Origin: an uncultured virus (IMG/VR IMGVR_UViG_3300025288_000019)
Taxonomy: Duplodnaviria; Heunggongvirae; Uroviricota; Caudoviricetes; Schitoviridae
Direction: 5' to 3' (one strand)
IMG/VR virus record: IMGVR_UViG_3300025288_000019
Length of the DNA: 64,000 nt
Positions within the stretch are counted from its first letter, which is position 1; each line of letters starts with the position of its first letter. Position numbers and translations under genes: made by a program. The notes below the pieces were generated by a model. The model made no database searches. It saw nothing but the letters and a program-made list of their open reading frames with translations, and was not told the DNA's origin. This document shows, in pieces, positions 699 through 28,865 of this stretch.

Positions 699-811
699 GA
701 CTTGCTATCTCCTCTCTTGATTGGTATTGGGTACACGCCCCATTGATCATCATTGCCCCTGTAAGCCTCATACTGGCAGGGGCGCTTTTGTTTGAAGTTT
801 CCTCTCTTCAT
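686..811 (-). CDS. Small hypothetical protein (41 aa, MKRGNFKQK...)
   Basis: Hand-translated; ATGA overlap with the rusA stop; fills the gap in the operon. Confidence 0.4.
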   Translation of the reverse strand: MKRGNFKQKRPCQYEAYRGNDDQWGVYPIPIKRGDSKSWEN

Positions 812-1224
812 ATTTCCGACACCTCAATCTCTGTCGCGGCATCCTCACCCCACACCGCCCAGCGTTTCGTTACGGCGAGGCTCACCACCTGCTTATCATC
901 GGCCCACGCCTCACCGTTTAGGCAATCAAGCGCGAATTTAGCGATGTTATCGACATCCTTTTTGTGTGTACAATGCCTAGCTGCCGCTGATCTCAACACG
1001 GTAGCGTTAGCTCCTGTCCCGTAGTGCGATTTAGGCCGTGAGAATACCGCCTCAATCTCTACCTTTAGCGCCCCTTCCATCTTTCTTTTGATCTGCTGTC
1101 TGGCTGTCAATAGCCAACGTCCGGCCTCTGTCTCCTGCGGGTTATAGGTATGGACAAACTTTCCCCGTCTGGCAAATCGTGGACGCTGCTGGGCTATTGG
1201 TTCACCGGGAATTGAGATTCTCAT
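808..1224 (-). CDS. rusA: RusA-family Holliday junction resolvase (copy 1)
   Basis: IPGEPIAQQRPR N-terminus; KKDVDNIAKFALDCLNGEAWADDKQV catalytic Asp motif. Confidence 0.9.
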   Translation of the reverse strand: MRISIPGEPIAQQRPRFARRGKFVHTYNPQETEAGRWLLTARQQIKRKMEGALKVEIEAVFSRPKSHYGTGANATVLRSAAARHCTHKKDVDNIAKFALDCLNGEAWADDKQVVSLAVTKRWAVWGEDAATEIEVSEI

Positions 1225-2075: not shown

Positions 2076-2511
2076 TGTATGCCTTCTCCTTAAATGGTTC
2101 GTTTACTTTTGTTAGTATAGCTTTCTTAATACCATGTTCTTTAGCCTTACTATTAGATGATGTCCAAATATCCACTCTATGCTTCCACCTAGAGTGCATG
2201 GTGTCTTCAACTTTAAACACTCCATATCCTTCCAAATAAACTGTTTTTCCTTTAAATCTTTCTTTTAAATCATGTGAAATTGCGAGCACACCTTTACGAG
2301 CTTTAGTACCTGATGATGTTATGCCTCTATTTGTATACATAGTGACTTCTACGAGGACTTTAGCAAGTGGCACGAGTGGTACAACCTGTTTAACAATTTG
2401 AGGCTGTACAGGCATTTTTGATGGTTTTATGTTATGAAGAATTTGTGGATTTATAAGAAATAGCGTTATCATAGTGCTGATAGCAACTATTCTACTCATT
2501 ATAACCTCCAA
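2068..2511 (-). CDS. 3D-domain (MltA-like) putative peptidoglycan hydrolase with N-terminal hydrophobic anchor
   Basis: VTMY..ITSSG..GVLAIS.D..VYLEGYGVFKVEDT..RVDIW, the 3D-domain pattern; hydrophobic IVAISTMITLFLI; true start probably the downstream Met (MSRIV). Confidence 0.75.
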   Translation of the reverse strand: MEVIMSRIVAISTMITLFLINPQILHNIKPSKMPVQPQIVKQVVPLVPLAKVLVEVTMYTNRGITSSGTKARKGVLAISHDLKERFKGKTVYLEGYGVFKVEDTMHSRWKHRVDIWTSSNSKAKEHGIKKAILTKVNEPFKEKAYIE

Positions 2512-2520
2512 TATCTAATA

Positions 2521-2727
2521 TTATGAATATAAATGTTCAAAAGACAGGTGTATAATCTGATCTAATTCTTCTTCTGTGATACTAATATGTTTACACTGGT
2601 TTCTAAGAGCATTTTTAAACTCTTCTTGCGTATATTTTTCTTTTTTCCTTACTTTTTCTGCGAATACTGTTCTAGCAGCTCCTAGTACACACGCTTTTAA
2701 CTCATCATTCAAAGTTATCTGTGTCAT
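2521..2727 (-). CDS. Hypothetical protein
   Basis: ORF with AAGGAG RBS. Confidence 0.6.
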   Translation of the reverse strand: MTQITLNDELKACVLGAARTVFAEKVRKKEKYTQEEFKNALRNQCKHISITEEELDQIIHLSFEHLYS

Positions 2728-2881
2728 TATCGTCTCCTTCCATAATAGAATAAATCTTCCCAGCGTAATGAATATCTAGCTCTACTGGTTCCTCGCGTAA
2801 CTTATCTAGCGCAATACTAAATGCTTCTTTAGCAGTTCCTGTTATAATAGTTGTACTCCATGTAACAGTAAATTTACGCAT
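2705..2881 (-). CDS. Hypothetical protein (58 aa, MRKFTVTWSTT...)
   Basis: Hand-translated; AAGGAG RBS. Confidence 0.55.
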   Translation of the reverse strand: MRKFTVTWSTTIITGTAKEAFSIALDKLREEPVELDIHYAGKIYSIMEGDDNDTDNFE

Positions 2882-2929
2882 ATACAGTAATCTCCTTAAT
2901 TTTATTATTTTTGTCGCAGCCTGATAAAA

Positions 2930-3835
2930 TCAGGCATCACGTTTGAATAGCGTTTCACAGACAACTGTCTTCGAAAATCTACACACAGCGACTGCCATTG
3001 GTGACACAATTTTGTAGGTAACTCCCTTCGAATAAACACAAACAGTGGAATTATCCAACATTTCCTGTACTGTAGATATGTCCCACATCTTTTGCACAGT
3101 AGACGCATCTAACAGTTCTTGTACAATAGAGTTGTCTCTCATCTCTTGTACAATAGAGTTGTCTCTCATCTCTTGCACGGTAGAATCGCCCCACATTTTC
3201 CGTACTGTGGAGTAATCCCACATTTTCCGTACTGTGGAGTAATTCCACATTTCGTGTACTGTGGAGTAACCCCGCATCTGATGTACTGTGGAATTGTCTA
3301 ACATCTTGTGTACTGTAGAATCGCCCAGCATATCTTGCACAATAGAGGTATCTAACATCTTCCGTACAATAGAGTTGTCTCTCATTTTTTGCACAATAGA
3401 GTTACTCCGCATTTCCTGTACAATAGAGTTGTTCCACATCTCTTGCACAGTGGAGTTAATCAATTTTTTGATAGTGGAATTTCTGACGAACAGACCTTTT
3501 TTACCAGAAACCTCGTCAAGTTCAACCCCATCAATCAGGCATTCGGAGAGACATTCCTTCAACGCTGAAAAAGCTGCAACTTTATGAGCCGGAGAAAACC
3601 ATTCTGGTACTGTTTTTTCATCAACACTAAAATTCCATTTTTTTAAATCTTTCTCGAATGCACCATCTAATGCTGAAGGTGGGATAATCTCTACCCTGGC
3701 GAACTTCAATGCCGATTGGTCGTGGGTATTATCATTTATCTTGTACTTTTCTAAAATTTCATGGTGGGCATTTAATCCAGCTTCCCATATGACTTTTTTA
3801 TTTTTCATCACAATGCAACTAAAAAATTCACACAT
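2930..3835 (-). CDS. Phage protein with conserved MCEFFS N-domain and 9-aa tandem repeats (predicted beta-solenoid)
   Basis: AAGGAG RBS before the ATG at 3835; 15 copies of xS(T/I)VxxMxx. Confidence 0.75.
   Translation of the reverse strand: MCEFFSCIVMKNKKVIWEAGLNAHHEILEKYKINDNTHDQSALKFARVEIIPPSALDGAFEKDLKKWNFSVDEKTVPEWFSPAHKVAAFSALKECLSECLIDGVELDEVSGKKGLFVRNSTIKKLINSTVQEMWNNSIVQEMRSNSIVQKMRDNSIVRKMLDTSIVQDMLGDSTVHKMLDNSTVHQMRGYSTVHEMWNYSTVRKMWDYSTVRKMWGDSTVQEMRDNSIVQEMRDNSIVQELLDASTVQKMWDISTVQEMLDNSTVCVYSKGVTYKIVSPMAVAVCRFSKTVVCETLFKRDA
3041..3457 (-). repeat. 15 x 27-bp degenerate coding tandem repeat
   Basis: Units NSTVQEMWN, NSIVQEMRS ... ISTVQEMLD plus a partial NSTV. Confidence 0.9.
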
Positions 3836-10495: not shown

Positions 10496-11476
10496 TTATA
10501 TAATTAGTGATCCATTGGCAAGATACTCATTTTTTTGAGAGCACAATTTAAATGCTGCGCAATAAACACATGCTTTAACTTGCCCTTTTATTTCTTTAAC
10601 CAAACCATTACTGCCATCTTGTACCAACTGGCATAGCACATCATTATAGCAGTCAAAGTTTTTTGTGCTGCGCTTTGTCTTAGCTGGATTTTTATAGTAT
10701 TTAAATACTGACTGTGATCTCCATAAATCTTCGTCAGTACAGTAAGGTAATGCTTCTTCAGGTGCATCCCATAATTTAGTAAGCTCATTTAGTTTACTTT
10801 TAACCCAGCTATCTATGTAAACTTCAGAATGCAATGCTAGTACAACTTCTACTATTCTATTTGCAGGGTAACCCTTACTAGCTTCACTTATCGATTTGCT
10901 TTTATTCCAATCAGTAAAAATATACTGAATAGCCATGTGGTCATCTGTGACTAATTCAGGATTTAACCAACGATACATACTACCTTGTAAGATAAATTTT
11001 TTATTATTGGATTTATTTAAATATGTGTAAACACTTGTGCTCTTAAAATCTTCTAATCTGCCATTAGCGATAAAATCATATTTACCTGAAACAATAAAAT
11101 TACCCACACGTTTAGTAACTCGTTGTTCCATATAAATAGGTATAGTTCCTGGTTCAGCTGTTGCTGGGTTAATACGAATACTATCAATAACTTTTTGCGG
11201 ATAGCCTAATAAAGCTAATCCTTCTCTATAGTTATTAAGCCATGCTGCGTTAATAGCAGTGTGCAGAGCTGTACCCATACTACTAGGGATCATTGCTGAT
11301 ATATCTGTAGTTGCTTGTTCATTAATGGTAACTCTATTAGCCAGTACAATCTGTCTTGCTGGCTTTAACAAGCTTGTGACACTAATAGTATTACTGTCAC
11401 CGCTATAGTCATATGAATCTTCAGCAAGCCATACAGCTAATGACATTGGTACTGCTGTTTTATTTGTGTATTTCAT
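10496..11476 (-). CDS. N4 gp42-like PD-(D/E)XK exonuclease
   Basis: Start re-called at MKYTNKT (GAGGAG RBS); MGTALH, SGKYDF, LEDFKST, C-terminal ACVYC..C. Confidence 0.85.
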   Translation of the reverse strand: MKYTNKTAVPMSLAVWLAEDSYDYSGDSNTISVTSLLKPARQIVLANRVTINEQATTDISAMIPSSMGTALHTAINAAWLNNYREGLALLGYPQKVIDSIRINPATAEPGTIPIYMEQRVTKRVGNFIVSGKYDFIANGRLEDFKSTSVYTYLNKSNNKKFILQGSMYRWLNPELVTDDHMAIQYIFTDWNKSKSISEASKGYPANRIVEVVLALHSEVYIDSWVKSKLNELTKLWDAPEEALPYCTDEDLWRSQSVFKYYKNPAKTKRSTKNFDCYNDVLCQLVQDGSNGLVKEIKGQVKACVYCAAFKLCSQKNEYLANGSLII

Positions 11477-11497
11477 TAGACTCCTCAAATAAGTTAT

Positions 11498-11574
11498 TGG
11501 TAGGCGTGGAGGGATTCGAACCCACACTTGAAGGATTTTAAGTCCTTTTCCTCTGCCAGTTGGGATACACACCC
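11498..11574 (-). tRNA. tRNA-Leu(UAA), 77 nt, CCA encoded
   Basis: GGGTGTG/CACGCCT acceptor stem, anticodon arm AAGGA-CT TAA AA-TCCTT, TTCGAAT T-loop, ACCA end. Confidence 0.9.
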
Positions 11575-11690
11575 AATAACAAAGATCACTCCAAATGCCG
11601 AAGGCATATTTACTTAAATAAATTGTATTAAGACTAAATGTGTACTTGGAAATTATAGAGAGAGATGGGTATAACTGGTACAGCCATATA

Positions 11691-12038
11691 TTATATAGCT
11701 GGAGGTACACTGGGAATAGAATGTTTTTTTGCTTCTACAATCAGTCCTTCTAATAGCAGAGAGTAATTTATTGTATCTGATAATTTATCATCAATAAGTT
11801 GTTGATTAGGGAAAACTCCATTAGCACAGTCTAAAACCATATCTTTAACAGACACAAGATGTTTAACCCACATACCCCATAATGCTTCAAATTCAGAATT
11901 ATTACTCATAGCAGCGGCAGTGTAGAAATTGTGCAATCTATCACCATTACGAGAATATTCCATACCTTTTGTATTAAGTAAGCTAAGGCAATGTTCAACT
12001 CTTTGTGTAGATAATTCTTCAAATTCTTTTGCGTTCAT
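11691..12038 (-). CDS. All-alpha nucleotide-modification/NTP-PPase-associated protein (DUF1599-like)
   Basis: KGMEYS..DRLHNF...KHL...DTINYSLLL pattern. Confidence 0.55.
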   Translation of the reverse strand: MNAKEFEELSTQRVEHCLSLLNTKGMEYSRNGDRLHNFYTAAAMSNNSEFEALWGMWVKHLVSVKDMVLDCANGVFPNQQLIDDKLSDTINYSLLLEGLIVEAKKHSIPSVPPAI

Positions 12039-12723: not shown

Positions 12724-13164
12724 CTAGCCATTTGTGTACTCTCCTATAACATGAATTAATGTTTTAGGTGTATTAGAGTAGACTTTACGTTCACGAGATT
12801 CATAAACTAATGAGTCATCTTCCCAAATAACCTGGTTAAAACAATCGTACACGTACTTAGTATAATTGTCGATGTCAGGTTTTGTCATAGGGTATAAAGG
12901 CATGTTTAATTTTAAACAATCACTTTTTTTACCTATGCCATAGTGGCTTTTAGGTCTTGCAATATGAAAAATAATTTCAATTTTCACTAAGCCATTAAAG
13001 CAAGTAAAATTTTTTGGTAATTGTTGTATTACACACTGCTTAAATTCGTCATTTTGCTTATGCTGAGGGTTATACATATGTATAAACTTACCCCTACGAG
13101 CAAGCTTATGTCTAGCTTTAGAAATTGGCTGTCCTGGTATACACAGATTGAGTTCTTTAATCAT
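12724..13164 (-). CDS. rusA: RusA-family Holliday junction resolvase (copy 2)
   Basis: Start re-called at MIKELNLCIPGQPISKARH; KPDIDNYTKYVYDCFNQVIWEDDSLV. Confidence 0.88.
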   Translation of the reverse strand: MIKELNLCIPGQPISKARHKLARRGKFIHMYNPQHKQNDEFKQCVIQQLPKNFTCFNGLVKIEIIFHIARPKSHYGIGKKSDCLKLNMPLYPMTKPDIDNYTKYVYDCFNQVIWEDDSLVYESRERKVYSNTPKTLIHVIGEYTNG

Positions 13165-13780
13165 GCTGTTTAATTTTGGCTTTATTAGCAATTTCTTTAA
13201 TGCTACTCTCATCAGCAGTGTTAGGAACTGCATGCGAATATGCCCAATTAGGCCAATATAACTCAAGCTTAGACGACATTTTTACAGTGTCATGCTTTAA
13301 CTCAGGTAAGTCACTCCATCGCATACACTCAATTAAATTATCATTTACCCATTTAACTATATGAACATCATCTTTAACTACATAGTATTGTGCATCATGG
13401 ATATGTGCAGATGGATGAATATCATAACGGTAAGGTGAAGCTAAACAGCGTTTTTGAAACTCAATAGCAGCTCTTTCATTGAGCATACAATAGCTTTGAC
13501 CTAACGCGTTACCTGCTGATCTACGTTCAGCCATAGCAATAAATGGGGTATAGTTTGTGTTGCAGATAGTTTGCTTTAGAATAGGAGTACGCAATCTTAA
13601 ACCAAAGGCACAAGTAACATACCCAGTAATACTGGCTTGATCCAGTTTAGCATTAACCCAATCATCAGATACTTTATATAATGAGTGGTAGTTTGTTTCA
13701 ATTTTTAAAGCAGTATCTTTAGAAAATCCACAGTTTTTTATAAGTGTAGCGAATGTCCCCCCATAAGTTAAGGCAAAAGT
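13157..13780 (-). CDS. Family A DNA polymerase, C-terminal segment (second half of motif B to motif C); no own start codon
   Basis: Open frame from ACT at 13780: TFALTYGG...AFGLRLRTP...AERRSAGNALGQS...HIHDAQY. Confidence 0.85.
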   Translation of the reverse strand, partial: TFALTYGGTFATLIKNCGFSKDTALKIETNYHSLYKVSDDWVNAKLDQASITGYVTCAFGLRLRTPILKQTICNTNYTPFIAMAERRSAGNALGQSYCMLNERAAIEFQKRCLASPYRYDIHPSAHIHDAQYYVVKDDVHIVKWVNDNLIECMRWSDLPELKHDTVKMSSKLELYWPNWAYSHAVPNTADESSIKEIANKAKIKQHD

Positions 13781-13908
13781 TAAGTTGGGGCCTTACTTTG
13801 TTGACGTAAGGCCCCATGCTCCTTTTTAAGCTGATTTATTGTATGTACAGAATAGTCTATCTTAGATATTTCTTGTATTTTAGTATCATTTGTTAGAATA
13901 ATATCCAT
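13780..13908 (-). CDS. DNA polymerase middle segment (42 aa, ends LRQQSKAPT-stop)
   Basis: Hand-translated MDIILTNDTKIQEISKIDYSVHTINQLKKEHGALRQQSKAPT*; AAGGAGG upstream; carries the first half of motif B. Confidence 0.8.
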   Translation of the reverse strand: MDIILTNDTKIQEISKIDYSVHTINQLKKEHGALRQQSKAPT

Positions 13909-13916
13909 TTTATTTA

Positions 13917-15932
13917 TTAGCCCTCCTTGCAACAAGCAGCGTAATACTCTTCTACGGAAATTCTCTTATTAGTGGCATCTATAACAAAATCCCCACTTTT
14001 ACAATACAATTCTTGCCCGTTTATGTTTAACTTAAAACATCTATCTGTATCTTCAGGTAAGCTAACATTTGGTAACTGTTCTCGAAAGTAATAAAATGTA
14101 CGCAGGCAATGACCATCGTAACCATGCTCATAAACAGCCATTTTATTAGGATCACGGGTAAGCAAAGCATTTACTTTATCCTCTAGAGAATCAAAATCTG
14201 ACCCACAAAATATATATCCAAATGGGGATATAAATGCTTGTTTAACTAACTTAGCATAAATTGAATTTGAAGGAATATTAGTAAGATTTGGTTCAGACGA
14301 AGATAAACGGCCTGACTGAGTACCCCCTAAATTAAAATTACCATATAATCTCCAGCTACCGTCAGGTAACTGTTGAGCTTGTTCAAACGCAGGTATAAAG
14401 CTGGTTAATATTTTGTCTGCTTGGGATAATCCAATAAATGCTTCAAGTAATAATGTGTGTTCTTCACATTTTGTAAAGTTAAGTAGTTTAGCAAGTGTTT
14501 TAACTCCTGTTGATGGAAAACCTCCTTTAGTAAAATCTATTGGTTCATAGCCTAAATAATCATAAATTAGTCTTTGCAGTTGTTTATCACTATGAGGGTT
14601 AAACTTAATTTGAGCAAAATCTTCTATTACTCTAACCTTTGTTTTTAATTTAAGATTATCTGCAGTAACTTTTTCTTGTAGTATTTGATAATGACAATCA
14701 TTTACTATGGGGGAATTAGCAATATATGCTTTATGTGCTTTAACAATATCTTTTAGTGTAGCTTTAACATTTTGTACTTGTGTTGGGTCAATAGGCATAC
14801 CAGATAATTCCATTTGTAGAATTACTTTTAACCCAGGTTTAAACAGTACCTCATAGGTATTAAGTTGGTCATCAGCTATCATTTTAGGTGTGTATTTATC
14901 AGCTACATACCATGTGCAGCATGCGTCTGTTAAGTTGTATTCAAGCAGTTTAGGCAAAGGTACTTTTTCAGTGTCAGTAATGTCTTCTAAAGCGTAATTA
15001 CCGGCAAATTCACGTGATAATACCTTAAGTTTTAAAACATTCTCCACAGTGTTATTTGTGGCTAAATAAGTAATAATTTTAGTGTCTTCACAATTACTGT
15101 GCAAAATTTCTATACCTTTTTGCATACCTATATAGTCAGCTAAATGCTGCATCCATAATTGATAAACCAATACCTTAATATCAAATGTTGCATTATGATA
15201 AATAATTTTACCTTTATAACGAGTAAAAAATGCTCGCAATACTAGCCTAATTTGCTCACTATCTTTATGCCTATCTATAGCAAAGGCTAGTCCTTCACAC
15301 TGATTCCACGCAAAAGCTATAGTGCTAATTCCACAGTTGTAGAATTTCAATCCTCGTGTCTCTATGTCACAAGTAATTGATTTGTACTGGTGAAGTCGAG
15401 CTAAAGCTAAAGTTATATCTTCGATAGTCTGAGGGTACTGAGGATTTTTTAAAGTTAACTTACCTGGGCTAGCATATGTACCTGCCAAGAAGTTAATAAC
15501 TGTCTGGTTAGCTAAGTCTAACTTAAGCTGTAAAGCAGGATTATAAAGAATGGCTTGGTAATTAGGAGCTAGAATAACGTTAATATGTTCGTAACCTTTG
15601 ATAGCACATTTTAAAACATGCCCGTAATAAAGGTCTGCCTTAGTTTTGCCTGCTAAAGTCTTAAAATAAGCCGAATCAGCTACTAATACCGTGTGAATAT
15701 CCATACCTGTGATAACGGGTAAAAGCTCTGCTAAATAGCCTTTTTGGTGTGCTACTGAGCAGTTACCAGATGATGGGTAGTCTAAGCTAAACGCAGCATA
15801 ATTGTTAGGATTACCCATCACATAGTTATTTTGGATTTGCTTATTTTTAAAACTAGCTGTTTTTATAAGTATTGCCACACGAGCTATTGCAGCTTGCTCT
15901 TGTAAACCAAAATAACAAGATAACATACGCAT
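13917..15932 (-). CDS. Family A DNA polymerase, N-terminal part (N4 gp39-like; 3'-5' exonuclease and motif A)
   Basis: CDIET, YHNATFD, YNLTDA exonuclease motifs; TQSGRLSSSEPNL; GSDFDSLED motif A; YDGHCLR. Confidence 0.93.
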   Translation of the reverse strand: MRMLSCYFGLQEQAAIARVAILIKTASFKNKQIQNNYVMGNPNNYAAFSLDYPSSGNCSVAHQKGYLAELLPVITGMDIHTVLVADSAYFKTLAGKTKADLYYGHVLKCAIKGYEHINVILAPNYQAILYNPALQLKLDLANQTVINFLAGTYASPGKLTLKNPQYPQTIEDITLALARLHQYKSITCDIETRGLKFYNCGISTIAFAWNQCEGLAFAIDRHKDSEQIRLVLRAFFTRYKGKIIYHNATFDIKVLVYQLWMQHLADYIGMQKGIEILHSNCEDTKIITYLATNNTVENVLKLKVLSREFAGNYALEDITDTEKVPLPKLLEYNLTDACCTWYVADKYTPKMIADDQLNTYEVLFKPGLKVILQMELSGMPIDPTQVQNVKATLKDIVKAHKAYIANSPIVNDCHYQILQEKVTADNLKLKTKVRVIEDFAQIKFNPHSDKQLQRLIYDYLGYEPIDFTKGGFPSTGVKTLAKLLNFTKCEEHTLLLEAFIGLSQADKILTSFIPAFEQAQQLPDGSWRLYGNFNLGGTQSGRLSSSEPNLTNIPSNSIYAKLVKQAFISPFGYIFCGSDFDSLEDKVNALLTRDPNKMAVYEHGYDGHCLRTFYYFREQLPNVSLPEDTDRCFKLNINGQELYCKSGDFVIDATNKRISVEEYYAACCKEG

Positions 15933-25622: not shown

Positions 25623-26304
25623 ACCACTGACGATGGAGGTATTCCAACAAGCTCTTCCTGCAGTTATGCGTAAGAATGTTAACCAGAATCTGCTGGATCA
25701 AATTAACAATACCTTAGGGCATCCTGAAATACTTGCTGCGTTTAAAGATAATCTGTTGGATTATGCTACTGTGCTCAACACAGGAAAGTATAAAATGTCC
25801 AACTATATCAGTGCAGTTAAATATGTAAGTTTTAAACTAATGGGGTCAACTAATATTGAAGCCTACACAAAAACATTCCCTGATAAGTATGCTCAGTTCT
25901 TGGCTGATGGTGTTAATAGTAAAGATATTGCAAGTTACTGCACTGCATACCACAAAAGTAAATTAGTAATGGCAATTATGGAGCAAACCATAATTCCATC
26001 ACACATATTAAATGCACCGATGTACCAACAAGCATTGAATGTTTTAAGCGATTTAATGCTTAACGCTAACAGTGAGAAAGTAAGATGTGAATCTGCTAAC
26101 AATATCTTAGCCGCGTTGAAGCGACCAGAAACTCAAAAAATAGAATTAGACATTGGAATAAATAGAGGTGAGATCATTGAAGACTATGAAAAAGCTATGC
26201 GCTTAATGGTAGAAAAGCAGCAAGAGCTGATTAGTGCTGGAGGTGACTTAAAAATGATTACTAATGCCACTATAAAATCAACTGAAGAACAGGCTATCCA
26301 GTGA
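25615..26304 (+). CDS. N4 gp69-like protein (candidate terminase small subunit)
   Basis: YISAVKYVSFKLMG, SEKVRCESAN; immediately upstream of terL. Confidence 0.8.
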   Translation: MDEPLTMEVFQQALPAVMRKNVNQNLLDQINNTLGHPEILAAFKDNLLDYATVLNTGKYKMSNYISAVKYVSFKLMGSTNIEAYTKTFPDKYAQFLADGVNSKDIASYCTAYHKSKLVMAIMEQTIIPSHILNAPMYQQALNVLSDLMLNANSEKVRCESANNILAALKRPETQKIELDIGINRGEIIEDYEKAMRLMVEKQQELISAGGDLKMITNATIKSTEEQAIQ

Positions 26305-28865
26305 AAACTAAGTACGAGAAGAAAACTGTGGAAGAGTGGCTTAACACCGTAGACTATACCTTTGCTGGTTACATGCCTACTGCTGAAGCTCTGCTATTCG
26401 TAAACTTTATTAAAGAAGTAAATGGAGGTGCAGAAGAGAATGAAACTCCACTAGTACACTTGGTAATGATGGATAATGTGTTTAACCTTAACAAACGATG
26501 TGCTATCCTTTGCCATCGTGGTGTGGGTAAAACAACTTTATTCGGAGAATACCTGGTTCTTTTTATTGCAGCATTTGGTTATTTGCCTGGTTTTGGCAAA
26601 ACTAACCTTATTTTATATGTCACAGACAGTATTGAAAATGGAGTTAAAAACCTTAGGCGTAATGTAGAATTTCGCTATAATGAAAGTGAATTCTTACAAA
26701 AAATGATTCCCAATCAAAGAATTAGCATGGGAACTGATGGTAGTGGTTTTGTTAACACAGCTAAATATGATGAACAAAGCGGCAATGGTAGAAAATTTAC
26801 AGATATTCGTTTAGAATTTAAAAATAATAAAGGGCACAATCTCGTTGTTAAAGGGTATGGAGCAAAAGCACTTAGTTTAGACACTTTAACGCTAATGGCA
26901 GATGGTACACAAAAACTAATTACTGAAGTACAGATAGGTGACTGTGTGGTTAATCCAGGCAACTCTGCTAGTAAAGACTCCCCTAACTATGTTACAGTAA
27001 TTGGTAAAAGTGAAATATTTAACCGTCCAATGTATAAAATTTCACTAGAAGATGGACGTTATGTAAAAGTATGTGAAGACCATCTAAATAGTGTAATTTT
27101 AAGGCTAAACCAAAATAGTAAAGTCAGCTATGCTAAGGCAGTCTTAACCACAAAAAACTTACTAAAACTACAGCGTATTAAAAATAGGGAATGGAAAGAT
27201 AAATGTACCAATACTTCACATGGAAATCTTTTCTTTATAGAAAACACTAACGTAGTGCATTTTCCAGATCAAGTGTATACAACTGACCCTTACACGTTAG
27301 GATTATTATTAGGTGTTGGTTTAGCAGGTAAAACCAATAAAAGCTTAACCTTAACAAACCATACTGGTAACAGATTCACTCCTAAAAATTACTTAATAGG
27401 GTCAGCAGCACAAAGAGTGCAGTTACTACGGGGTTTAATGGATTCTTCTGGTTCAATATGGAAAAATAGAAAAATATATTTCTGCAGCAATTCAGAAAAA
27501 CTAGTTGATGATGTGTCATTTTTAGTGCGTAGTCTTGGAGGTACCGCAAAAAAGAGAAAATTAAAGAAAACATATAAAATTGAAATATGGATTTCTATAA
27601 ATCCGTTTAGACTAGCGGAAAAAGCCTGTAGATTCACTTCTGCTGGGTTTAAACCATTAGTGGCAATCACTAGCATCGAAAGAATCCCTGACGAGCCTAG
27701 CCAGTGTATAGCTGTTTCTGGAGATTTACAGGAATTTATAGTAAATGATTTTATTAGAACACATAATACAGGGGTACGTGGTGCAAAAGAACTTGGGCAA
27801 CGCCCAACAGTGGCTATTCTTGATGACTTGATTAGTGATACTGATGCTGAATCCCAAACAATTATCAAGACAATAGAAAATACTGTCTATAAAGCTGTGT
27901 CAAAAGCACTCAGTCCTACTAAGCAAAAAATGATTTGGCTGGGCACTCCATTTAATGCTCGTGACCCATTGTATAAAGCAGTCGAATCAGGAGCTTGGGG
28001 GGTAAGTGTATTTCCTATTTGTGAACATTTTCCTGTTGATAAGAATAATTTTAAAGGCAGTTGGGAAGATAGATTTACATATGAATATGTTTTAGATGAG
28101 TACAATGAAGCGCAAGCTCTAGGGTTACCTGCTAACTTTAACCAGGAGTTAATGTTGAGAATTATGTCAGATGAAGATAGGCTAGTCTTCGACAATGAGA
28201 TAGGCTGGTATAGCTACGAGTCACTCTTAAAGAGAAAGGGTGCTTTCAATTTTTATATTACTACTGACTTTGCAACAAGCGACAAAGAAGCTAGTGACTA
28301 TTCTGTAATTGCTGTATGGGCTTTAAATCATCTAGGGCAATGGTTTTGGGTTGACGGGGTATGTGCAAAGCAGAATATGGGTAAGAATATGGATGAACTA
28401 TTTAGACTGGCTCAAAAATGGAAACCGCAGGCTGTAGGAATTGAAGTTAGCGGTCAGCAAGGCGGGTTTATTCCATGGATTCAGAGTCAAATGATGGATA
28501 AAAATATATTCTTTACTCTAGCCAGTGACAGCAATCATGGGCAACCTGGGATTAGACCCAATACGAACAAGATGGTTAGGTTTAATGTCATGGTTCCACA
28601 TTTTAAAGCACATAATATCTTTTTCCCTACTGAAAAAAGACAAACATCTATCATACAAGAATACGAAAATGAACTAGCACTAGCAAGTCCAGCAGGTTTT
28701 AAGAGTAAACATGACGACTGCATAGATACAATATCTATGTTGGGCTGTTTAGTAGTGTGGCGACCAAGTGAAGAAGTACCTATTGTAACAAAGAAAGATT
28801 CAAATATTTGGGAAATAGAAGACGACGAACAAAATACTGGACGTATACAATCTTATATTGTATAA
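26301..28865 (+). CDS. terL: Terminase large subunit (N4 gp68-like) with intein
   Basis: CHRGVGKTT Walker A, AILDD Walker B, TTDFATS nuclease, HDDCID. Confidence 0.95.
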   Translation: MKTKYEKKTVEEWLNTVDYTFAGYMPTAEALLFVNFIKEVNGGAEENETPLVHLVMMDNVFNLNKRCAILCHRGVGKTTLFGEYLVLFIAAFGYLPGFGKTNLILYVTDSIENGVKNLRRNVEFRYNESEFLQKMIPNQRISMGTDGSGFVNTAKYDEQSGNGRKFTDIRLEFKNNKGHNLVVKGYGAKALSLDTLTLMADGTQKLITEVQIGDCVVNPGNSASKDSPNYVTVIGKSEIFNRPMYKISLEDGRYVKVCEDHLNSVILRLNQNSKVSYAKAVLTTKNLLKLQRIKNREWKDKCTNTSHGNLFFIENTNVVHFPDQVYTTDPYTLGLLLGVGLAGKTNKSLTLTNHTGNRFTPKNYLIGSAAQRVQLLRGLMDSSGSIWKNRKIYFCSNSEKLVDDVSFLVRSLGGTAKKRKLKKTYKIEIWISINPFRLAEKACRFTSAGFKPLVAITSIERIPDEPSQCIAVSGDLQEFIVNDFIRTHNTGVRGAKELGQRPTVAILDDLISDTDAESQTIIKTIENTVYKAVSKALSPTKQKMIWLGTPFNARDPLYKAVESGAWGVSVFPICEHFPVDKNNFKGSWEDRFTYEYVLDEYNEAQALGLPANFNQELMLRIMSDEDRLVFDNEIGWYSYESLLKRKGAFNFYITTDFATSDKEASDYSVIAVWALNHLGQWFWVDGVCAKQNMGKNMDELFRLAQKWKPQAVGIEVSGQQGGFIPWIQSQMMDKNIFFTLASDSNHGQPGIRPNTNKMVRFNVMVPHFKAHNIFFPTEKRQTSIIQEYENELALASPAGFKSKHDDCIDTISMLGCLVVWRPSEEVPIVTKKDSNIWEIEDDEQNTGRIQSYIV
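26868..27767 (+). mobile_element. 300-aa intein (Ala1, class 3-type) with degenerate LAGLIDADG domain
   Basis: Interrupts GYGAK/TGVRG; starts ALSLDT; block B VCEDH; block F SQCIAV; ends RTHN followed by Thr. Confidence 0.9.

What the first reader, a model, noticed from the sequence alone, without database searches (positions are those of the whole stretch)
13777..13816. Candidate programmed ribosomal bypass inside DNA polymerase motif B
Seen (mRNA sense): CAU GGG GCC UUA CGU CAA CAA AGU AAG GCC CCA ACU UA ACU UUU GCC UUA ACU UAU GGG. The motif LRQxSKAPTFALTYxG is broken by a 5-nt duplication (AACTT x2, 13777-13786). This puts a UAA right after Thr-ACU and an identical ACU 5 nt downstream, in the frame encoding the remaining ~207 aa including motif C. 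That frame has no ATG before the motif B residues. Directly 5' is an 11-bp perfect stem with a 9-nt loop (13786-13796/13806-13816), unusually GC-rich for this genome and embedded in coding sequence. Established: T4 gene 60 bypassing uses matched take-off and landing codons, an adjacent stop and stem-loops. Inference: an ACU-to-ACU hop would restore motif B exactly, whereas a -1 frameshift would add residues to the O-helix. This would be a recoding switch gating replicase synthesis. Alternatives: an excision footprint (target-site duplication), a reversible slippage switch, or an assembly error at a hairpin.
Basis: partly seen in the sequence, partly recalled or inferred. Interest (0 to 1): 0.85.

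Follow-up and report, generated by a model that had tools for sequence, protein, structure and literature searches.

The report
Ribosome hop in phage DNA polymerase
An uncultured N4-like groundwater phage carries five extra bases with a stop codon inside the most conserved motif of its DNA polymerase gene, and nine diverged relatives keep the same design, so ribosomes most likely hop over the gap, a way of reading a gene proven so far only for phage T4.

Summary
On the minus strand, motif B of a family A DNA polymerase is broken by 5 bases: ACT-TAA, then an identical ACT 5 nt on. An 11-bp GC-rich stem abuts it on the 5' side. Five separate assemblies show the insert, including a strain 0.8% diverged.

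That is the footprint of a homing-endonuclease cassette.

Nine other diverged lineages carry the same module at two places in motif B: a Thr codon, a stop, then 2 nt. Three features recur:
- The landing triplet keeps the wobble class of the take-off codon in 10 of 10 lineages.
- An unusually stable stem abuts the take-off codon. For the window and its three closest-design relatives, 0 of 141 intact relatives match it.
- GGAG/GAGG lies 5' of the stem in 8 of 10 lineages.

Most lineages have an HNH gene just upstream. Two relatives have 45-47-nt gaps with a 10-bp stem and tetraloop, like T4 gene 60.

Best reading: a programmed +5 translational hop installed by a homing cassette, confidence about 0.7. 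No protein or RNA evidence exists. Earlier AI notes of this scan describe similar inserts in other phage polymerase genes.

The parts
13917..15932 (-). N-terminal polymerase ORF of 671 codons: 3'-5' exonuclease plus the first half of the polymerase domain including motif A. It ends in TAA TAA.
   Evidence: ORF list. Pfam DNA_pol_A_exo1 and DNA_pol_A, profile positions 15-190.
13920..14063 (-). C-terminal extension of the N-fragment, about 48 residues after the position where intact relatives run on (...PDI/PNV). It has no counterpart in unsplit polymerases.
   Evidence: Comparison with intact N4 (L042) and with the tails of other split alleles. The same NING...EE[FY]Y pattern occurs at another split site in phage Pylas and L014.
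13921..13928 (-). Shine-Dalgarno AAGGAGGG for the restart ATG at 13908-13906. No endonuclease gene lies between the two ORFs.
   Evidence: Sequence.
13783..13908 (-). 42-codon leader of the C-fragment: a new N-terminal extension of about 22 residues, then polymerase residues up to ...LRQQSKAPT.
   Evidence: Leaders of 36-47 codons occur in the other split alleles with inserts.
13819..13824 (-). Shine-Dalgarno-like AAGGAG, 2 nt 5' of the stem. GGAG starts 37 nt before the take-off codon.
   Evidence: GGAG/GAGG lies at -40..-34 in 8 of 10 lineages with a 5-nt insert, against 10-14 of 139 intact relatives in the -46..-27 window.
13786..13816 (-). Stem-loop of 11 bp with a 9-nt loop. Its 3' arm ends directly before the take-off codon.
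   Evidence: The 36 nt before the take-off codon fold at -20.9 kcal/mol, and 0 of 141 intact relatives reach this. The stem co-varies in L299, L302 and L305.
13783..13785 (-). Take-off codon ACT (Thr of PTF).
13778..13782 (-). The five uncoded bases TAACT. TAA (13782-13780) sits in the A site at take-off. ACT (13780-13778) is the landing triplet.
   Evidence: The spacing of relatives is restored only if these 5 nt are skipped.
13157..13777 (-). Rest of the polymerase: 206 codons from Phe of motif B through motif C to the stop.
   Evidence: There are 0 differences from strain L002 over the 621 nt of 13160-13780.

Best explanation
The gene is the family A DNA polymerase of an N4-like phage. It once received a homing-endonuclease cassette, which left three marks:
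- a split of the gene, with added tails on both halves;
- a 42-codon leader on the second half;
- a 5-nt insert in motif B, which probably destroys the endonuclease's target site.

The endonuclease gene itself has since been lost from this phage.

Proposed way of making a working enzyme (inferred):
1. Ribosomes translate the leader and reach Thr ACU with UAA in the A site, in the weak stop-plus-C context.
2. Peptidyl-tRNA(Thr) leaves ACU.
3. The mRNA slides 5 nt.
4. The same tRNA re-pairs with the identical ACU.
5. Decoding resumes at UUU, giving the canonical ...KAPTFALTY... helix.

The 11-bp stem abutting the take-off codon, with the GGAG just 5' of it, is proposed to drive or set this forward slide as it re-forms behind the ribosome.

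Shown: the sequence anatomy, its persistence, its recurrence, and its co-variation in relatives.
Inferred: the hop itself, its efficiency, the role of the stem and GGAG, and the protective role against the endonuclease.
For: (1) The insert is real and persistent. Five assemblies carry it, one of them 0.8% diverged. The downstream 621 nt show 0 of the 32 differences, where about 4.8 would be expected if they were spread evenly.

(2) The same design recurs in diverged relatives. At the same place (PT|F), three lineages whose downstream protein is only 51-59% identical carry it: L299 ACC-TAG-CT, L302 ACT-TAA-TT and L305 ACT-TAA-CC. At LT|Y, six further lineages carry Thr-stop-NN. All three stop codons occur.

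(3) The landing triplet ends in a purine in 3 of 3 lineages whose take-off codon is ACG. It ends in a pyrimidine in 7 of 7 lineages with ACU or ACC (Fisher p = 0.008). This is expected if one tRNA pairs at both sites.

(4) The 36 nt before the take-off codon fold at -20.9, -21.7, -15.5 and -19.2 kcal/mol in the four PT|F lineages. None of 141 non-redundant intact relatives reaches these values. Six of eight LT|Y alleles are matched by at most 7 of 141 intact relatives. The stem is kept through synonymous changes, and 3 of 15 predicted pairs show compensatory changes.

(5) GGAG/GAGG lies at -40..-34 in 8 of 10 lineages, against 7-10% of intact relatives.

(6) At LT|Y no -1 slip can re-pair or keep the motif. 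Only a 5-nt skip does (sequences).

(7) L174, the closest relative found, has CUU-UGA-CUU in frame with a 10-bp abutting stem.

(8) L060 and L137 have 47- and 45-nt gaps. Each starts Thr-CUC-UGA followed by a 10-bp stem with a tetraloop. The stems differ by compensatory changes.

(9) An HNH_3 endonuclease gene lies directly upstream in L363, L364, L367, L372, L060, L137 and others, and as cut-off partial matches in L299 and L302.

(10) The cultured phage nACB1 carries a related HNH gene (50% identity) in an intron-like insert at the Leu codon of the same motif. So this DNA is a homing site.

(11) The layout mirrors the T4 MobA/gene 60 element: split gene, added tails, bypass about 46 codons into the second ORF, and endonuclease loss with the bypass retained (Manning and Atkins preprint, section 11, read).
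Against: - There is no RNA or protein evidence.
- No cultured phage with such an insert was found.
- Landing triplets are not always cognate. L302 has AUU and L299 has GCU, which pair with a GGU anticodon only through G-U wobbles.
- Strain L002 has an A-G mismatch in the stem (Ala to Asp), so a perfect stem is not required.
- Two LT|Y alleles (L364, L366) have ordinary upstream folding and no GGAG.
- At take-off the 3' arm of the stem lies inside the ribosome. How the stem acts is therefore conjecture.
- A 5-nt tandem duplication produces matched codons automatically, so identity in the window alone is not evidence of selection.
- All four PT|F lineages also have a CCCC run on which tRNA(Pro) could slip -1.
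- The lineages are not fully independent, because cassettes may share one origin.
Confidence: 0.7

Rival explanations
1. The site is a programmed -1 frameshift. Peptidyl-tRNA(Pro) on CCA slips back onto CCC in the CCCC run. Decoding continues AAC UUA ACU UUU, which gives a polymerase with two extra residues (Asn-Leu) between Pro and Thr of the O-helix.
For: The -1 frame is open from 13792. All four PT|F lineages keep GCCCCA or AGCCCC. The product would have the same length as a read-through product of the in-frame Pro-stop-X inserts of other relatives.
Against: - There is no X XXY YYZ heptamer and no 3' stimulatory structure.
- With tRNA(Pro) in the P site, the A-site codon is ACU and not the stop, so the conserved stop would have no role.
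- A stem on the 5' side favours forward movement, not backward.
- None of the 213 relatives with the intact 36-nt spacing has a sense two-residue insert here.
- The LT|Y alleles share the design but cannot use a -1 slip.
- The wobble-class match of the landing triplet is unexplained.
Confidence: 0.12
2. The insert is an undecoded scar: a repair footprint or slippage duplication. The polymerase gene is dead, and the phage replicates with another polymerase or a helper.
For: A tandem 5-nt duplication is a common mutation. No expression data exist. All holders are metagenomes of one habitat type and year.
Against: - The insert persists across a 0.8% diverged strain and several runs.
- Both flanking ORFs are intact, and the downstream part has 0 changes.
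- Nine other lineages, 38-62% identical in protein, keep a stop-bearing insert of the same design with changing stop codons. A decaying pseudogene would not.
- Selected stems and GGAG accompany the inserts.
- No second DNA polymerase was found among the 30 further ORFs scanned.
Confidence: 0.08
3. The enzyme is made in three pieces. Translation ends at TAA and releases the 42-residue peptide. The last 206 residues are started separately (termination-reinitiation aided by the GGAG and the stem), and the pieces assemble.
For: The gene is already split once and works in two pieces in relatives such as Pylas and Pollock. A Shine-Dalgarno-like motif with a hairpin lies upstream.
Against: - The downstream frame has no ATG, GTG or TTG before 13594. 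The same holds near the site in L245, L299 and L305.
- The cut would fall inside the O-helix, between the Lys and the Phe/Tyr that act together. This rests on established polymerase I structure.
Confidence: 0.04
4. The site is a reversible DNA-level switch. The two-copy AACTT repeat contracts in a fraction of genomes, and those genomes supply the polymerase.
For: Tandem repeats do contract. Contigs of runs X6 and X7 stop near the site, although at depth 2-4.
Against: - Every contig that bridges the site has the insert.
- L299, L302 and L305 have inserts that are not tandem repeats yet keep the design.
- Contigs cannot show rare variants, so this is not excluded.
Confidence: 0.03

Closest known systems
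Phage T4 gene 60 translational bypass within the MobA homing-endonuclease element (Manning and Atkins, bioRxiv 10.1101/2022.08.31.505936, abstract and section 11 read; review PMC5009743, passages read)
   Same: An essential replication gene is split by an HNH-type element, with added tails on both halves. An uncoded insert lies about 42-47 codons into the second ORF. A stop follows the take-off codon. The landing triplet is readable by the same tRNA. There is a 5' stem-loop. The endonuclease can be lost while the insert stays. Relatives L060 and L137 even have about 46-nt gaps with a stem and tetraloop after the stop.
   Different: The host gene differs (polymerase A motif B, not topoisomerase) and so does the phage group (N4-like podoviruses, not myoviruses). 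In the window the gap is 5 nt, so there is no room for a take-off stem-loop or a Shine-Dalgarno in the gap. Instead a strong stem and GGAG lie on the 5' side. Homology of the endonucleases to MobA was not tested. The preprint states that MobA elements occur only in the topoisomerase gene.
Streptomyces phage Hau3 terminase, candidate bypass of 10-nt inserts (Antonov et al. 2023, PMC10732093, passages read)
   Same: A short uncoded insert lies in an essential phage gene. The proposed stimulators are a stem-loop on the 5' side with a flanking Shine-Dalgarno.
   Different: There a rare UUA sense codon is in the A site, not a stop. The gap is 10 nt. No homing cassette is described in the passages read. 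A regulatory role tied to host tRNA is proposed.
Synthetic 'stop-hops' and +5/+6 hops in E. coli (Weiss et al. 1987, seen only as a reference title in PMC10732093 and as discussed in PMC5009743)
   Same: A peptidyl-tRNA re-pairs at a matched codon a few bases downstream across a stop.
   Different: Those were low-level events in artificial constructs. The review states that no natural in-frame stop-hop is known. Here the site is natural, conserved, and carries dedicated flanking structure.
Fractured genes, and genes split by free-standing homing endonucleases (Dassa et al. 2009, PMC2677866, passages read)
   Same: A replication gene is cut in two with an endonuclease gene between the halves.
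   Different: Fractured genes are rejoined by split inteins. Here the added tails total about 70 residues, too short for an intein, and a second interruption needs recoding.
Endonuclease-bearing intron-like insert in motif B of cultured Acinetobacter phage nACB1 (OQ032511)
   Same: The same motif B DNA is interrupted, by an HNH gene 50% identical to that of L060.
   Different: The insert is about 850 nt with a P1-like pairing at the exon end, presumably removed by RNA splicing. Rfam gave no match at the gathering score.

Membership tests
Gene 60-type programmed translational bypass | The take-off and landing codons can be read by one tRNA. | tested here: met
   ACT at 13785-13783 and ACT at 13780-13778. 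The wobble class matches in 10 of 10 lineages with a 5-nt insert.
Gene 60-type programmed translational bypass | A stop or slow codon lies directly 3' of the take-off codon. | tested here: met
   TAA at 13782-13780. TAA, TAG or TGA occupies this place in all relatives with 5-nt inserts.
Gene 60-type programmed translational bypass | A take-off stem-loop lies within the gap, 3' of the take-off codon. | tested here: not met
   The window's gap is only 5 nt. The feature is present in relatives L060 and L137, as a 10-bp stem plus tetraloop.
Gene 60-type programmed translational bypass | A Shine-Dalgarno-like element lies in the gap, about 6 nt before the landing codon. | tested here: not met
   There is no room in the gap. 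AAGGAG instead lies 5' of the stem at 13824-13819.
Gene 60-type programmed translational bypass | A stem-loop lies 5' of the take-off codon. | tested here: met
   An 11-bp stem ends at position -1. The 36 nt before the take-off codon fold at -20.9 kcal/mol, reached by 0 of 141 intact relatives.
Gene 60-type programmed translational bypass | A nascent-peptide signal acts in the exit tunnel. | not testable with these tools
   The leader is 42 codons, long enough to fill the tunnel. No conserved signal was sought.
Gene 60-type programmed translational bypass | A single polypeptide spanning the gap has been demonstrated. | not testable with these tools
   No RNA holder was listed, and no protein data exist.
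MobA-like homing cassette (split host gene, added tails, endonuclease, insert) | The host gene is split, with C- and N-terminal extensions on the two halves. | tested here: met
   Stop, Shine-Dalgarno and ATG lie at 13928-13906. There is a tail of about 48 residues and a head of about 22 residues, both absent from intact relatives.
MobA-like homing cassette (split host gene, added tails, endonuclease, insert) | An endonuclease gene lies between the halves. | tested here: not met
   Absent in the window, where only a few bases separate the ORFs. No HNH was found among 30 other ORFs. It is present in relatives. Its loss has precedent in MobA elements.
MobA-like homing cassette (split host gene, added tails, endonuclease, insert) | Sequence homology to MobA, or residence in the topoisomerase gene. 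| not tested
   The host gene is a polymerase, so this is not a MobA element as defined in the preprint. The endonucleases of relatives are NUMOD4 plus HNH_3.
DNA polymerase family A, motif B (O-helix) | R-x3-K-x3-F-x3-Y-G spacing within a DNA_pol_A domain. | tested here: met
   Pfam DNA_pol_A matches on both sides of the break. The spacing is restored only by skipping 5 nt. N4 aligns without gaps to the Taq polymerase O-helix region.
Canonical -1 programmed frameshift site | A slippery X XXY YYZ heptamer with a 3' stimulatory structure. | tested here: not met
   There is no heptamer in 13792-13780. Only a weak 3-bp helix is predicted downstream.

The most novel reading that the evidence does not exclude
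N4-like phages carry a family of homing-endonuclease cassettes that install a minimal, portable bypass module: GGAG, a stem of 10-12 bp, a Thr codon, a stop, and 2 nt. This module makes ribosomes slide exactly 5 nt with no structure in the gap. It would be the short end of a natural series (5, 6, 45 and 47 nt) in one gene motif. It would show that programmed hopping is a general way for selfish nucleases to mark conserved protein motifs without harming them.
Probability: 0.5. Interest if true: 0.9.

Novelty: new variant of a known kind. Interest (0 to 1): 0.8.

Why it matters
Programmed translational bypass has been shown at the bench only for T4 gene 60. The field has long asked whether it is a one-off.

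A conserved natural 5-nt hop in an essential polymerase would give a second, much simpler system. It comes with a graded series of natural variants: two sites, three stop codons, cognate and wobble landings, strong and weak stems, and gaps of 5 to 47 nt. With these, the roles of 5' structure, Shine-Dalgarno-like pairing and tRNA re-pairing could be tested directly.

It would also extend the idea that homing endonucleases protect their own copy by inserting uncoded bases into the target.

It matters for annotation too. Such genes are now called as frameshifted or truncated polymerases.

Tried and rejected
- **Own assembly.** The window's own assembly is not held. The nearest record, G001, is identical over the gene, so it adds no independent information.
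- **RNA.** No RNA holder was listed among 18 runs.
- **Uncovered stretch.** Contigs of X6 and X7 leave 13764-13881 and 13762-14076 uncovered at depth 2-4. Nothing is inferred from this.
- **Rfam.** At gathering scores on the window and 8 loci, only the tRNA matched. There was no group I intron call for nACB1.
- **Cultured phages.** None with an insert was found. A 46-residue leader query gave nothing. DNA queries around the inserts of L171, L372, L365 and L048 matched only phages lacking the extra 5-6 nt.
- **Closer relatives.** None closer than 62% turned up for the window in metagenome contigs, and none for L174 in viral contigs (7 loci, at most 54%).
- **Long-gap pattern.** It gave 36 hits, of which only the 3 already-known contigs are polymerases.
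- **Window-type pattern in genome contigs.** It gave 53 hits, and none has R..SK upstream, so all are chance.
- **FAL-stop-L-TY pattern.** 0 hits in viral contigs.
- **Terminator scan.** None at the stem.
- **Split intein.** Considered for the two added tails and dropped. About 48 plus 22 residues is too short, and no nucleophile follows the second tail. This is inference.
- **Outer helix.** RNAalifold predicts a helix between AAAGG and CUUUU after the stop, with one compensatory change. It cannot exist while a ribosome sits on the site, so it was left uninterpreted.
- **Not run.** No structure or complex prediction was made, because none would discriminate between the explanations.
- **Literature.** Searches for N4-like or Schitoviridae bypassing or split polymerase found no description of this. 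Searches were search listings; one search gave passages of PMC3670811, which only notes HNH-split DNAP in Vibrio phages JA1 and VchO139-I.
Full report
**What is there.** The window is most of an N4-like phage genome.
- It has a 3420-codon ORF of the size of the virion RNA polymerase typical of N4-like phages and an SU10-type portal.
- The polymerase region gives DNA matches of 65-68% to Schitoviridae.
- GC is about 34% around the gene.

On the minus strand the family A DNA polymerase is in three frames:
- a 671-codon ORF (15932-13917) ending TAA TAA;
- after AAGGAGGG and an ATG at 13908, a 42-codon ORF ending ...LRQQSKAPT-TAA at 13780;
- a 207-codon frame starting at the ACT that overlaps that TAA (13780) and running to 13157.

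The downstream frame also lacks a start codon before 13594.

The stem is unusual. Its fold has z = -3.41, and 2 of 200 shuffles fold as well. It is one of 7 perfect hairpins with a stem of 11 bp or more in 64 kb.

**It is not an artefact.**
- The insert is in two identical IMG/VR contigs.
- It is in L002, which differs at 32 of 4182 positions and has no gaps.
- Contigs of runs X5 and X8, which are not flagged as possible sources, bridge it without any difference.
- The stretch is held by 18 groundwater or aquifer runs, 7 of them with at least half of its words.
- Of the 32 differences in L002, none lies in the 621 nt after the insert. One lies in the leader, changing Ala to Asp and breaking one stem pair.

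**What relatives show.** I collected polymerase loci of relatives from viral and metagenome contigs. I measured the distance from the R..SK anchor to the Y.G anchor of motif B.
- Of 237 loci with both anchors, 213 have the canonical 36 nt and 24 do not.
- Pattern scans added more.

The exceptions fall into classes.

(a) *Thr-stop-NN (+5) at the window's own position.* L299, L302 and L305 are only 51-59% identical to the window and to each other in the downstream protein.

(b) *Thr-stop-NN (+5) one turn further on, between Thr and Tyr of LTY.* This occurs in six lineages:
- L245/L363
- L364/L366
- L365/L378
- L367 with L374 and L375
- L372
- L373

(c) *An in-frame CUU-UGA-CUU.* This is in L174, the closest relative found (62%).

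(d) *Gaps of 47 and 45 nt.* These are in L059/L060 and L137. Each begins Thr-CUC-UGA followed by a 10-bp stem capped by a tetraloop, and the stems differ by compensatory changes.

(e) *In-frame Pro-stop-X inserts.* Four lineages carry them.

(f) *A single extra base at UUU-C.* This is in L056, L241 and L243.

The nearest relatives of L060, at 95-97% protein identity, are unsplit and intact. The whole arrangement was therefore gained as a unit.

**Signs of selection on a hop.**
- Across the ten +5 lineages all three stop codons occur.
- The landing triplet is the last base of the stop plus the two extra bases. It ends in a purine in the 3 lineages whose take-off codon is ACG. It ends in a pyrimidine in the 7 lineages with ACU or ACC (Fisher p = 0.008). 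This is the wobble rule for one tRNA reading both sites.
- The base after the stop is C in 9 of 10 lineages and U in L302. I recall stop-plus-C as a weak termination context; no call tested this.
- The 36 nt before the take-off codon fold at -20.9 (window), -21.7, -15.5 and -19.2 kcal/mol in the four lineages of class (a).
- In 141 non-redundant intact relatives, the same position has mean -4.3 and minimum -13.5 kcal/mol. None reaches the class (a) values.
- In class (b) the values are -16.1, -14.4, -13.3, -13.1, -11.3, -10.9, -7.6 and -6.6 kcal/mol. The intact mean there is -5.2, and 0, 1, 2, 2, 4, 7, 31 and 45 of 141 intact relatives respectively fold as well.
- In every strong case the 3' arm ends at or next to the take-off codon.
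- In class (a) the inner stem differs between lineages through synonymous Ala, Leu, Ser, Lys and Arg codons. RNAalifold finds 3 of 15 pairs with compensatory changes. In class (b) it finds 1 of 9.
- GGAG or GAGG lies 34-40 nt before the take-off codon, just 5' of the stem, in 8 of 10 lineages. Only 10-14 of 139 intact relatives have one in a 20-nt window there.
- Not all alleles conform. L364 and L366 lack both stem and GGAG. L305 has only AAGGAA. L299 and L302 land on triplets that pair only through G-U wobbles. Strain L002 has a mismatch in the stem.

**Link to homing endonucleases.**
- An HNH_3 gene, usually with NUMOD4, lies directly before the leader in L048, L060, L137, L099, L125 and L166, and in L363, L364, L367 and L372.
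- L373 scores below the cut-off.
- L299 and L302 are cut off by the locus end.
- L174 has the homologous C-terminal end.
- The window and L305 have no gene between the two halves.
- L365 and L378 have at least 199 open codons upstream, so they have no nearby split.
- Split alleles without an endonuclease and without an insert also exist: L019, which has a Tad2-like gene there, and L033.
- In the cultured phage nACB1, an HNH gene 50% identical to that of L060 sits in an insert of about 850 nt at the Leu codon of FALTY. The exon end pairs with the first bases of the insert, like a group I P1 helix, and joining at U|UA restores TFALTY. Motif B DNA is therefore a homing site for this endonuclease family.
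- All the small inserts lie within about 20 nt of it.
- The tail added to the N-fragment resembles the tail at a different split site in phage Pylas and L014. So the tails seem to travel with the cassette.

**Mechanism proposed.** The layout is that of the T4 MobA/gene 60 element as described by Manning and Atkins (section 11):
- a split gene with added tails;
- an uncoded insert about 46 codons into the second ORF, which protects the element from its own nuclease;
- loss of the nuclease with the insert retained.

For the window I propose a +5 hop of peptidyl-tRNA(Thr) from ACU to ACU with UAA in the A site. The abutting stem and the GGAG would favour forward sliding. With the stem closed, the GGAG would lie about 7 nt from the landing triplet and only 2 nt from the take-off codon. 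That last geometric point, like the role of the stem, is inference. At take-off the 3' arm of the stem is inside the ribosome.

A stem-loop on the 5' side with a flanking Shine-Dalgarno has also been proposed for the 10-nt inserts of phage Hau3 (passages of PMC10732093).

**Rivals.**
- *A -1 slip of tRNA(Pro) on the CCCC run.* This is possible in class (a). It adds Asn-Leu to the O-helix, gives the stop no role, and cannot work in class (b).
- *A dead gene.* This does not fit the persistence, the changing stop codons or the selected flanking structure.
- *A three-piece enzyme.* It lacks a start codon and would cut the O-helix.
- *A DNA-level switch.* This cannot be excluded with contigs alone. 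But L299, L302 and L305 are not tandem repeats.

**Comparison and novelty.** In my searches I found no description of bypassing in N4-like phages or in any polymerase A gene.
- The 2016 review states that natural in-frame stop-hops are unknown and that used bypassing is rare.
- The 2022 preprint calls the T4-type cassette unique to topoisomerase genes.
- Earlier AI notes of this scan describe the same kind of endonuclease-linked short stop-inserts in dnaE, polymerase B and another polymerase A of other phages. I did not test those, and they are not independent evidence.

I rate this a new variant of a known kind. It works like gene 60 bypassing, but it is not a member of the MobA element family. 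It lacks the defining signals inside the gap.

**Limits.**
- All evidence is comparative.
- The lineages may share cassette ancestry, so the counts overstate independence.
- Fold energies are predictions.
- No cultured carrier was found.
- Supplements of the preprint were not seen and may list related cases.

Noticed in passing
L046/L048/L117/L118, L099/L171, L125/L170, L163/L166 (motif B): Four lineages have an in-frame 6-nt insert reading Pro-stop-X before Thr-Phe: CCT TAG CTT, CCG TGA ACA and CCG TAA CTA. Each lies beside an HNH gene. They have no strong 5' stem (-1.4 to -5.1 kcal/mol) and no cognate landing triplet. How they are decoded (hop without re-pairing, or read-through with two extra residues) is unexplained.
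   Followed up: partly
L056/L143/L241 and L243 (motif B): There is a single extra base at TTT-C-GCA, where a +1 slip of tRNA(Phe) from UUU to UUC would restore the motif. It is seen in two assemblies that differ at 2 of 1571 bases, beside an HNH gene at another split site.
   Followed up: partly
L019:2138-2875: In one split polymerase the place of the endonuclease gene is taken by a gene with a Tad2-like (Thoeris anti-defence) domain (E 7e-23). Motif B is intact there.
   Followed up: no
L254 (Acinetobacter phage nACB1, OQ032511) about 2358-3198: The polymerase of this cultured phage is interrupted inside motif B by an intron-like insert of about 850 nt that holds an HNH gene. GenBank annotates two separate polymerase CDS, and Rfam gives no group I match at the gathering score.
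   Followed up: partly
window 13920-14063 and L173/L014 N-fragment tails: The tail added to the N-terminal polymerase fragment shares a pattern (..NING.. then ..EE[FY]Y..) with the tails at a different split site in phage Pylas and L014. This suggests that the cassette brings its own tails, perhaps to hold the halves together.
   Followed up: partly
L365 and L378: These carry the same Thr-stop-NN insert at LT|Y but have at least 199 open codons upstream. A short leader is therefore not required. The two differ in the stop codon (TGA against TAA) at 97% protein identity.
   Followed up: partly
window 26301-28865 (+): This 854-codon ORF has a LAGLIDADG_3 match at residues 373-425. It may be an intein in a structural or packaging gene; Vibrio N4-like phages are reported to have one in the large terminase (PMC3670811, passage).
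   Followed up: no
window 11498-11574 (-): The only tRNA in the window, tRNA-Leu with anticodon TAA, lies inside the mechanical ORF 10496-11710. The N-terminal part of that ORF is therefore spurious.
   Followed up: no
window 808-1224 and 12724-13266 (-): There are two RusA-family resolvase genes. The second, as listed from its TTG start, overlaps the polymerase 3' end.
   Followed up: no
A1 columns 3-7 with 49-53 (window about 13825-13821 with 13779-13775): RNAalifold predicts an outer helix between AAAGG, which overlaps the Shine-Dalgarno-like motif, and the CUUUU just after the stop. L302 has one compensatory change there. Its meaning is unclear.
   Followed up: no
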